DNA from: Candidatus Westeberhardia cardiocondylae
Lineage (GTDB): Bacteria; Pseudomonadota; Gammaproteobacteria; Enterobacterales; Enterobacteriaceae
Direction: 5' to 3'
Assembly: GCA_024648765.1 (NCBI GenBank)
Contig: JABYQC010000001.1
Span: 309,000 to 340,999, forward strand
Length of the DNA stretch: 32,000 nucleotides
In this document: piece after piece, positions 8,155 to 8,500 of the stretch
How positions within the stretch are numbered: the stretch's first letter is position 1
Layout of the letters: each line of letters begins with the position of its first letter
Notes under the pieces: generated by a model
Database searches by the model: none
Seen by the model: only the letters and a program-made list of their open reading frames with translations
Told to the model about the DNA's origin: nothing
Position numbers and translations under genes: made by a program

Positions 8155-8500
8155 CTATTGATAGTAATTCCATATTTTTTTTAATTCTTTTTCTACATGA
8201 ATATTGTCTATTTTGTTTATTTTTTTTTTAATTAATACCACAAAATCAAAATTAAACAACATATTTTTACGTATACGAAAACTTTCTCGTATAATTCTTT
8301 TTATACGGTTACGTTCATGGGATTTTTTAATGTATTTATTAGAAATAACTATTCCTAATCTAGGGATATCCTAAATGGTTATAATGTTTAAAAACAATAA
8401 AGTATGGGTAGTAAAATCTTTCCGCGTGTTTAAAAACGTGAATAAATTGTTTGTTCATTAATAATCTATATTTTTTAGAAAACAAATATCTAGACATCAT
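8155..8500 (-). CDS. rnpA: RNase P protein component RnpA, interrupted by a 1-nt frameshift (pseudogene, assembly error or +1 recoding)
   Basis: Hand translation of the minus strand. Frame A runs from ATG 8500: [46 protein letters not shown], then TAG at 8362-8360. Frame B (+1) continues [68 protein letters not shown], with TAG at 8157-8155. Joined, the roughly 114 aa align end to end with E. coli RnpA (...[36 protein letters not shown]...). The gene starts 8 nt after the rpmH stop, as in the rpmH-rnpA operon. Confidence 0.85.

What the first reader, a model, noticed from the sequence alone, without database searches (positions are those of the whole stretch)
8155..8500. Essential rnpA is split by one extra C at a CCC-TAG site with a prfB-like +1 frameshift layout
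Both halves of RnpA are intact and conserved, and neither has any other stop. They lie in frames 0 and +1. The junction on the minus strand reads UUA GGA UAU CCC UAG AUU AGG. Skipping one base after CCC (8365-8363) gives ...LGYP|RLGIV..., which matches E. coli ...LGHPRIGLT.... This has three ingredients of the classical prfB recoding site (AGGGGG UAU CUU UGA C). There is a shift-prone P-site codon that can re-pair in +1 (CCC to CCU; a tRNA-Pro UGG gene is in this window). A 0-frame stop follows immediately. An SD-like AGGA lies exactly 3 nt (UAU) upstream. As I recall, CCC followed by a stop has been reported as +1 shift-prone in E. coli. The alternatives are a very recent inactivating insertion, which would be surprising for an essential gene with no other lesions, or a homopolymer sequencing error.
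Basis: partly seen in the sequence, partly recalled or inferred. Interest (0 to 1): 0.75.

Follow-up and report, generated by a model that had tools for sequence, protein, structure and literature searches.

The report
One-base frameshift in symbiont rnpA
The RNase P protein gene of an ant gut-cell symbiont (Westeberhardia) carries one extra C that its three sequenced relatives lack; this is a lineage-specific frameshift mutation that happens to form a known slippery "CCC-stop" site, not a conserved prfB-like recoding signal.

Summary
On the minus strand, rnpA reads ...UUA GGA UAU CCC UAG A... Its 5' part (8500-8363) and 3' part (8361-8155) are both open and lie in frames 0 and +1. Joining them gives a full RnpA that keeps every invariant residue.

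The window is a MAG of 'Ca. Westeberhardia cardiocondylae', from Cardiocondyla minutior or C. mauritanica. It was sequenced on Illumina at 230x or more and assembled with SPAdes.

The prfB-like reading is not supported:
- The type strain and two other lineages have uninterrupted rnpA, with TAT CCT AGA or TAT TCT AGA at the site. The window therefore differs by a single C duplication (CCT to CCCT), which alone creates both the CCC and the TAG.
- The AGGA is the default Leu-Gly encoding, and only 4 of 19 genes have a 4-mer Shine-Dalgarno core.

Three results argue against long-standing decay:
- rnpA is the only broken gene among 20 in the window.
- Its branch is not accelerated on either side of the shift.
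- Only 2 of 207 possible single-base duplications would give such a "shifty stop".

Best reading: a real, recent insertion, probably tolerated because CCC_UAG allows low-level spontaneous +1 slippage. A recent null allele or a polymorphism or consensus error remains possible. Reads and proteomics would decide.

The parts
8363..8500 (-). rnpA 5' segment in frame 0: 46 codons, from ATG at 8500 to the CCC Pro codon at 8365-8363
   Evidence: N-terminal residues align with RnpA homologues.
8363..8365 (-). CCC run holding the extra C. Relatives have CCT or TCT here, one base shorter. This would be the P-site codon of a putative +1 slip (CCC to CCU).
   Evidence: DNA alignments. CCC is a rare codon here, 10 of 214 Pro codons.
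8360..8362 (-). Frame-0 stop codon UAG, followed by A at 8359. It is created from the ancestral cCT AGa by the insertion.
8155..8361 (-). rnpA 3' segment in the +1 frame: AGA (Arg47) to TAG at 8157-8155. It contains the RNR motif [15 protein letters not shown].
   Evidence: The first canonical start in this frame is only at 8262.
8369..8372 (-). AGGA, from the Leu-Gly codons TTA GGA, 3 nt upstream of the CCC. It looks like a Shine-Dalgarno sequence but carries no evidential weight.
   Evidence: 17 of 44 Leu-Gly pairs are encoded with AGGA, and 4 of 19 genes have an SD core. It is absent in relatives.
8509..8652 (-). rpmH (L34), the upstream gene of the rpmH-rnpA-yidC-mnmE cluster. Intact.
   Evidence: TIGR01030, 69.5 bits.
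6347..7990 (-). yidC, the downstream gene. Intact. It identified the organism (100% to MCR3754833.1).
153..228 (+). tRNA-Pro(UGG) with G37. This tRNA would read CCC and could re-pair on CCU.
1113..2189 (-). prfA (RF1), intact. RF1 is the factor that reads UAG.
   Evidence: TIGR00019, 437.9 bits against a cut-off of 423.25.

Best explanation
rnpA of this Westeberhardia lineage (symbiont of Cardiocondyla minutior or C. mauritanica) carries a genuine, evolutionarily recent, lineage-specific duplication of one C (ancestral TAT CCT AGA became TAT CCC TAG A).

That one event both breaks the frame and creates a 'shifty stop'. The rare codon CCC sits in the P site, read by tRNA-Pro(UGG), which can re-pair on CCU. 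A slowly decoded UAG follows a C-terminal proline.

A small fraction of ribosomes probably slips +1 there and makes normal full-length RnpA (...LGYP-RLGIV...). That would be enough for a low-abundance RNase P subunit, and it would explain why the mutation is tolerated.

This would be unselected, 'corrective' leakiness at a fresh indel. It is not an evolved prfB-type recoding signal.

- **Shown:** the insertion relative to three orthologous loci, the intactness and unaccelerated evolution of both halves, and the high read coverage of the source assembly.
- **Inferred:** that slippage actually occurs and suffices for function.
For: **The insertion is lineage-specific.**
- Exactly one extra base is present relative to L001, L002 and L003, all of which have intact rnpA.

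**The assembly is reliable here.**
- The source MAGs were Illumina HiSeq 4000 plus SPAdes. The two candidate assemblies have 230x and 729x coverage.
- All 19 other genes in the 32 kb window match their NCBIfam models end to end.

**There is no sign of decay.**
- No second lesion is present, and all invariant RnpA residues are kept.
- The half downstream of the shift is more similar to outgroup RnpAs (mean 49%) than the intact orthologues are (42-44%).
- The window-branch rate ratio is 1.08 for rnpA (1.07 for the N half, 1.09 for the C half), against 1.07 for yidC and a range of 0.62-2.15 for neighbouring genes.

**The position of the insertion is unusual.**
- Of 207 distinct single-base duplications possible in the repaired gene, only 2 give an in-frame homopolymer codon directly followed by a stop, and the observed one is one of them. 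This fits survivorship of a leaky allele.

**The slippage chemistry is documented.**
- CCC-stop +1 slippage is reported at about 1-2% in E. coli and Salmonella. It rises 4.4-fold when CCC must be read by the near-cognate UGG tRNA. CCC_UAA is used by phages (PMC3082878).
- Compensatory frameshifting is a recognised class in endosymbionts and mitochondria (PMC5009743).
- The ant symbiont Blochmannia vafer has single frameshifts in essential genes (dnaG, dnaX, pth) without rate acceleration (PMC3017870).
Against: - No reads, RNA or protein data were available, so the frameshift product is unproven.
- Only one individual queen was sequenced, so fixation of the allele is unknown.
- Published CCC-stop efficiencies are for UGA or UAA in other bacteria, not for UAG in this organism.
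- The absence of decay fits a very young null allele or an artefact equally well.
- The 2-in-207 figure assumes equiprobable duplications.
- Whether this genome has only one tRNA-Pro, and whether it keeps trmD and efp, could not be checked from 32 kb.
Confidence: 0.55

Rival explanations
1. This is a real insertion but a dead gene. rnpA has just become a pseudogene in this matriline, and no useful amount of full-length protein is made. The cell survives on RNase P RNA alone, on intact copies in a polyploid or mixed symbiont population, or the symbiont line is declining (the symbiosis is described as labile).
For: - rnpA is pseudogenised in Blattabacterium BBge and BPam (PMC3296467).
- rnpA is missing in Hodgkinia, where tRNA 5' ends are still processed (PMC6581868).
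- A single queen was sampled, and the symbiosis is often lost in these ants (PMC9381600).
- The frame break is not conserved.
Against: - There is no second lesion and no rate acceleration in either half, so the event would have to be very recent.
- All three other Westeberhardia assemblies keep rnpA intact.
- The insertion lies at one of only 2 of 207 positions giving a homopolymer codon plus stop, which a random null mutation would hit rarely.
Confidence: 0.2
2. This is an assembly or consensus artefact, or a within-host polymorphism. The true or major allele would be CCT AGA and the gene would be intact.
For: - The sequence is a MAG assembled with SPAdes in assembler-only mode, with no read error correction.
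- The gene is otherwise perfect.
- Spurious frameshift pseudogenes do occur in assemblies (PMC11017572).
- No independent assembly of this lineage could be found.
Against: - Illumina data at 230x or 729x mean coverage.
- A 3-base run is not an error-prone homopolymer.
- Illumina assemblies give the fewest and most reproducible frameshift calls.
- There is no other frame break among 19 genes (about 22.6 kb of coding sequence) in the window.
Confidence: 0.12
3. This is an evolved, programmed +1 ribosomal frameshift of the prfB type. The CCC_UAG with an upstream SD-like AGGA would be selected to set or regulate RnpA level.
For: - The layout UAU-CCC-UAG with AGGA 3 nt upstream resembles AGGGGG UAU CUU UGA C.
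- CCC-stop sites are used for programmed +1 shifts in Listeria, Lactobacillus and Bacillus phages.
- Both halves are under apparent constraint.
Against: - The site is absent from the type strain and from the other lineage with CCT, and from the third with TCT.
- AGGA is absent in relatives and is the default Leu-Gly encoding.
- AGGA pairs with only 4 nt of the anti-SD, and in a register 2 nt closer to the P site than in prfB (inference from the canonical anti-SD sequence).
- SD motifs are rare in this genome, 4 of 19 genes.
- There is no flanking RNA structure signal, z = -1.4.
- There is no autoregulatory logic, because UAG is read by RF1, not by RnpA.
Confidence: 0.08
4. The gene is expressed as a split protein. 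Termination at UAG would be followed by re-initiation on a near-cognate codon (AUA or AUU at 8352-8344) in the +1 frame, giving two fragments that assemble.
For: The stop and the +1 ORF overlap, so re-initiation is geometrically possible.
Against: - There is no ATG, GTG or TTG in the +1 frame before 8262, which lies beyond the RNR motif.
- There is no SD.
- No precedent for a split RnpA was found.
Confidence: 0.03

Closest known systems
CCC_stop 'shifty stop' +1 slippage sites: E. coli and Salmonella pheL and 18 other CCC_UGA gene ends; Listeria phage tsh (CCC_UGA); Bacillus phage SPP1 and Lactobacillus phage Q54 (CCC_UAA) (PMC3082878, PMC5009743)
   Same: An in-frame CCC is directly followed by a stop. 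tRNA-Pro can re-pair on the overlapping CCU. The host is low in GC and CCC is a rare Pro codon. The +1 frame encodes the rest of a real protein, as in the phage cases.
   Different: The stop here is UAG. The site sits inside a housekeeping gene and is not conserved in orthologues. No efficiency has been measured. In pheL the shifted product is non-functional, and in the phages the site is conserved and makes an additional product.
prfB (RF2) programmed +1 frameshift: AGGGGG UAU CUU UGA C
   Same: A slippery P-site codon is followed by an in-frame stop. The E-site codon is UAU. A purine-rich SD-like element lies 3 nt upstream.
   Different: - The shift codon is CCC, not CUU.
- The stop is UAG (read by RF1), not UGA.
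- The SD-like core is 4 nt rather than 6 nt and sits in a different register.
- There is no autoregulatory logic.
- The site is not conserved among orthologues, whereas the prfB site is conserved across most bacteria.
Single frameshifts in otherwise intact essential genes of insect endosymbionts, rescued by transcriptional slippage at poly(A) tracts: Buchnera and Blochmannia, e.g. B. vafer dnaG, dnaX and pth (PMC3017870; Tamas et al. 2008, as cited in PMC5009743)
   Same: An ant or insect endosymbiont with an AT-rich reduced genome carries a one-base indel in a homopolymer of an essential gene. There is no other decay and no rate acceleration. Low-level restoration of the frame is proposed.
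   Different: Those indels lie in A or T runs of 9 or more bases and are corrected at the RNA level. Some are conserved between species. Here the run is only C3, too short for polymerase slippage, so any rescue must be ribosomal. The indel is seen in one lineage only.
rnpA loss or pseudogenisation in highly reduced symbionts: Blattabacterium BBge and BPam, Hodgkinia (PMC3296467, PMC6581868)
   Same: The RNase P protein gene is disrupted or absent in an obligate insect symbiont.
   Different: Here the gene has a single lesion and is otherwise fully conserved. Three related genomes retain it intact.

Membership tests
RnpA (RNase P protein, TIGR00188 / PF00825) | Full-length match above the curated cut-off, with the RNR motif present | tested here: met
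   The joined protein scores 75.5 bits against a cut-off of 38.35, covering model positions 3-105 of 111. [15 protein letters not shown] and all 21 invariant alignment columns are kept. Neither half alone covers the model.
prfB-type programmed +1 frameshift | Slippery P-site codon directly followed by an in-frame stop, with the rest of the protein in the +1 frame | tested here: met
   CCC (8365-8363), UAG (8362-8360), and the +1 ORF to 8155.
prfB-type programmed +1 frameshift | Conservation of the frameshift site among orthologues | tested here: not met
   The type strain and L001 read TAT CCT AGA; L002 reads TAT TCT AGA. All are in a single frame.
prfB-type programmed +1 frameshift | Functional internal Shine-Dalgarno stimulator at critical spacing | tested here: inconclusive
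   AGGA is present 3 nt upstream. But it has a 4-nt core only, it is the default Leu-Gly encoding (17 of 44), it is absent in relatives, and an SD core lies upstream of only 4 of 19 genes. Function is not testable here.
prfB-type programmed +1 frameshift | Autoregulation: the gene product decodes the stop codon at the site | tested here: not met
   The product is RnpA. UAG is decoded by RF1, which is encoded intact at 1113-2189. This rests on established knowledge of RF1 and RF2 specificity.
CCC_stop shifty-stop slippage site | In-frame CCC followed by a stop, with an overlapping CCN codon for re-pairing of tRNA-Pro | tested here: met
   The sequence is CCC UAG, with +1 codon CCU. A tRNA-Pro(UGG) gene is in the window.
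CCC_stop shifty-stop slippage site | Demonstrated +1 product or measured efficiency | not testable with these tools
   This needs proteomics or a reporter assay. Literature values are for CCC_UGA (2% or less, up to 8-27% in tRNA-Pro mutants).
Frameshift pseudogene of a reduced endosymbiont | Indel relative to intact orthologues | tested here: met
   One extra C relative to three orthologous loci.
Frameshift pseudogene of a reduced endosymbiont | Further lesions or relaxed constraint after the break | tested here: not met
   There is no other stop or indel. The C-terminal half is 49% identical to outgroups, against 42-44% for the intact orthologues. The branch ratio is 1.08, similar to yidC at 1.07.
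Transcriptional-slippage-rescued frameshift (Buchnera/Blochmannia type) | Indel inside a long (about 9 or more) A or T homopolymer | tested here: not met
   The run is CCC, 3 bases. The A10 tract at 8220-8229 lies downstream of the stop and cannot restore the frame.

The most novel reading that the evidence does not exclude
In this Westeberhardia lineage, RnpA is made only through efficient +1 ribosomal frameshifting at CCC_UAG, and the site is maintained by selection. It might, for example, couple RNase P protein supply to tRNA-Pro or RF1 status. If so, it would be the first obligatory ribosomal (not transcriptional) frame correction reported in an insect endosymbiont, and the first in rnpA.
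Probability: 0.07. Interest if true: 0.7.

Novelty: new member of a known kind. Interest (0 to 1): 0.3.

Why it matters
If the insertion is real and RnpA is still made, this would be a natural example of an essential gene kept alive by ribosomal slippage at a fresh indel. That is the proposed first step by which 'corrective' frameshifting becomes fixed in organelles and endosymbionts. It would complement the transcriptional-slippage cases already known from ant and aphid symbionts.

It also matters for annotation. rnpA in this MAG should be flagged as frameshifted but possibly functional, not silently dropped from gene-content comparisons.

If the gene is simply dead, it adds a data point on how far RNase P protein can be dispensed with in reduced symbionts. 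Either way it does not reveal a new recoding mechanism.

Tried and rejected
- **Independent copies of the same lineage.** Exact-protein look-ups found nothing on record for window YidC, P0110, L34 and the 46-aa 5' ORF. A protein search with the joined RnpA found no hit above 47% identity. Junction-pattern scans that allowed either CC or CCC found 0 hits in genome contigs and metagenome contigs. A YidC-based locus scan of genome contigs found nothing. Read-level or second-assembly confirmation was therefore impossible.
- **Transcriptional slippage.** Rejected, because a C3 run is too short. The A10 tract lies downstream of the stop.
- **Stop-codon reassignment or readthrough.** Rejected. prfA is intact, TAG ends three full-length genes, and readthrough would not restore the frame.
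- **Independent initiation of the 3' part.** There is no canonical start in the +1 frame before 8262.
- **RNA stimulator.** The MFE z-score is -1.4, which is not significant. Rfam finds only the two tRNAs.
- **Systematic indel errors in the assembly.** Rejected, because the other 19 genes are full length.
- **Klein et al. 2016 (type-genome paper).** It is not held in the library, so the trmD, efp and tRNA-Pro complement could not be checked.

Full report
**1. Observation**

On the minus strand, rnpA starts at ATG 8500. It runs 46 codons in frame 0 to ...CAT TTA GGA TAT CCC (8365-8363) and then meets TAG (8362-8360).

The +1 frame is open from AGA (8361-8359) to TAG (8157-8155). It encodes [29 protein letters not shown].... 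The third frame is full of stops.

The joined 114-aa protein passes the NCBIfam rnpA equivalog model at 75.5 bits against a cut-off of 38.35, covering model positions 3-105 of 111. In an alignment with E. coli, Serratia symbiotica, Aschnera, Pantoea and Buchnera RnpAs, it keeps all 21 invariant columns. These include Pro46 and Arg47 on either side of the junction.

AGGA (8372-8369) lies 3 nt before the CCC. A tRNA-Pro(UGG) gene with G37 is at 153-228.

**2. Source organism and data quality**

The neighbouring YidC is 100% identical to MCR3754833.1, 'MAG: Candidatus Westeberhardia cardiocondylae', on a 400,272-bp contig. The gene order rpmH-rnpA-yidC-mnmE matches other Westeberhardia loci.

The MAGs come from Jackson et al. 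2022 (PMC9381600). Single queens of C. minutior, C. mauritanica and C. wroughtonii were sequenced on Illumina HiSeq 4000 with 2x150 reads and assembled with SPAdes 3.11.1. Table S4 of that paper gives these figures:

| Host | Assembly size | Coverage | Contigs |
|---|---|---|---|
| C. minutior | 448 kb | 230x | 3 |
| C. mauritanica | 462 kb | 729x | 2 |
| C. wroughtonii | 525 kb | 56x | 60 |

A 400-kb contig can only belong to one of the first two assemblies, so coverage at this site was 230x or more on average. I could not tell which of the two hosts it is. Regional GC values did not settle it.

All 19 other protein genes in the window match their family models end to end. These are prmC, prfA, prs, pth, mnmE, yidC, rpmH, dnaN, gyrB, murJ, argS, aspS, yebC, dtpA, tyrS, hisS, a 198-aa ORF, der and udk. 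rnpA is therefore the only frame break among 20 genes, and the assembly shows no systematic indel problem.

**3. Comparison with relatives**

Three related loci were retrieved:
- L003, the finished type genome LN774881 from C. obscurior.
- L001, MAG JABYQA, in the same 90% YidC cluster as the type strain.
- L002, MAG JABYQB.

The three lineages (window, L002, and L001/L003 together) are roughly equidistant, at 63-65% YidC identity.

All three relatives have a single-frame rnpA of 110-115 aa. The DNA alignment shows exactly one extra base in the window at the junction:

| Locus | Junction |
|---|---|
| window | TAT CCC TAG ATT AGG |
| L001 / L003 | TAT -CC TAG AAT TGG |
| L002 | TAT -TC TAG ATT AGG |

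The ancestral state was therefore Tyr-Pro/Ser-Arg, encoded as TAT (C/T)CT AGA. The window has a duplication of one C.

It also removes most of the apparent design. The same C duplication in L001 or L003 would produce the same TAT CCC TAG A. The hidden TAG is part of cCT AGa, and the CCC is the duplicated run itself.

**4. The SD-like element**

AGGA is TTA GGA, coding for Leu-Gly. Outgroup RnpAs have Leu-Gly at the same position, for example E. coli SLGHPRIG.

In the 19 window genes, 17 of 44 Leu-Gly pairs are encoded with AGGA. AGGA occurs 108 times in 22.6 kb of coding sequence. Only 4 of 19 genes have even a 4-mer SD core upstream of the start. Relatives lack the motif at this position.

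By inference from the canonical anti-SD sequence, AGGA pairs with only 4 nt, in a register 2 nt closer to the P site than prfB's AGGGGG. It therefore adds no evidence for a programmed site.

No significant RNA structure flanks the site (z = -1.4).

**5. Is the gene decaying?**

No.
- There is no second lesion.
- The part downstream of the break is more similar to outgroup RnpAs (mean 49% identity) than the intact orthologues are (42% for L001, 44% for L002).
- In a three-lineage branch-length comparison, the window branch relative to the other two is 1.08 for rnpA (N half 1.07, C half 1.09). The same ratio is 1.07 for yidC, 0.83 for mnmE, 0.62 for pth and 2.15 for rpmH.

So the insertion is either very young relative to the long lineage branch, or the whole protein is still under purifying selection, or the extra C is not real.

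**6. Is the position of the insertion special?**

I enumerated all 207 distinct single-base duplications of the repaired gene.
- 25 put a stop directly after the codon containing the duplicated run.
- Only 2 (CCC_TAG, which is the observed one, and AAA_TAA) give an in-frame homopolymer codon plus an immediate stop.

That is about 1% of all duplications, or 2 of the 68 duplications that fall in runs of 2 or more. This modestly favours survivorship of a leaky allele over a random null mutation or a random error. The assumption of equal probabilities is crude.

**7. Mechanistic plausibility from the literature**

[quoted passage not shown] In Salmonella pheL it is 1.9%. It rises to 8.4% when the cognate CCC reader is deleted, so that the near-cognate UGG tRNA decodes CCC, and to 27.5% with an additional tRNA mutation.
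- A C-terminal proline slows termination.
- CCC_UAA and CCC_UGA are used productively by phages of low-GC hosts in which CCC is a rare codon (PMC3082878 and PMC5009743).

Here CCC is 10 of 214 Pro codons. The only tRNA-Pro seen is UGG. The number of tRNA-Pro genes in the whole genome could not be checked.

Compensatory frameshifting at retained indels is a recognised class in mitochondria and endosymbionts. Blochmannia vafer, another ant symbiont, carries single frameshifts in essential dnaG, dnaX and pth without rate acceleration (PMC3017870). Those are in long A/T runs and are thought to be corrected transcriptionally, which a C3 run cannot support.

Precedent also exists for doing without rnpA. 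It is pseudogenised in two Blattabacterium genomes and absent in Hodgkinia, where tRNA 5' ends are nevertheless processed.

**8. Verdict**

The feature is real in the deposited sequence, and at 230x or more Illumina coverage it is probably real in the organism. It is a lineage-specific one-base insertion, not a conserved recoding signal.

| Reading | Confidence |
|---|---|
| Recent insertion tolerated because the CCC_UAG it created leaks by spontaneous +1 slippage | 0.55 |
| Very recent null allele without useful rescue | 0.2 |
| Consensus error or within-host polymorphism | 0.12 |
| Selected prfB-like programme | 0.08 |
| Termination and re-initiation giving a split protein | 0.03 |

These readings cannot be separated further without reads, population sampling, proteomics or reporters. 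No independent assembly of this lineage exists in any collection I could search.

**Novelty and interest.** This is a new member of a known kind: an indel-disrupted symbiont gene at a known shifty-stop motif. Interest is modest, about 0.3.

Noticed in passing
window 8653-9496; L003 480-2271: There is no dnaA ORF between rpmH and dnaN, only an AT-rich spacer of 844 bp. The type-strain locus has a similar gene-free gap. This fits a symbiont that lacks dnaA at the usual position.
   Followed up: partly
window 24719-26779: About 2 kb between tyrS and hisS has no ORF longer than 66 aa and no Rfam hit. It is probably the eroded remnant of one or more genes.
   Followed up: partly
window, 19 annotated genes: Stop codon usage is TAA 16, TAG 3 and TGA 0. 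No in-frame TGA was seen. Only 4 of 19 genes have a 4-mer Shine-Dalgarno core within -20 to -4. Whether prfB (RF2) is retained in this genome was not checked.
   Followed up: no
window 8220-8229 (minus strand): An in-frame A10 tract lies inside the 3' part of rnpA. That length is prone to transcriptional and replication slippage in other endosymbionts. It cannot compensate for the upstream frameshift, but it is a second fragile spot in the gene.
   Followed up: no
window 7991-8154: There is no yidD between rnpA and yidC, only a 164-bp spacer. Several Sodalis-allied relatives have YidD (PF01809) fused to or adjacent to YidC.
   Followed up: no
window versus L001, L002, L003: Genomes all labelled 'Ca. 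Westeberhardia cardiocondylae' differ by about 35% in YidC and about 50% in RnpA amino-acid sequence. They are clearly distinct species-level lineages under one name.
   Followed up: partly
window 28071-28667: A 198-aa ORF between hisS and der has no NCBIfam match at E <= 1e-10. By position it could be a diverged yfgM. bamB, expected between it and der in E. coli gene order, is absent.
   Followed up: no
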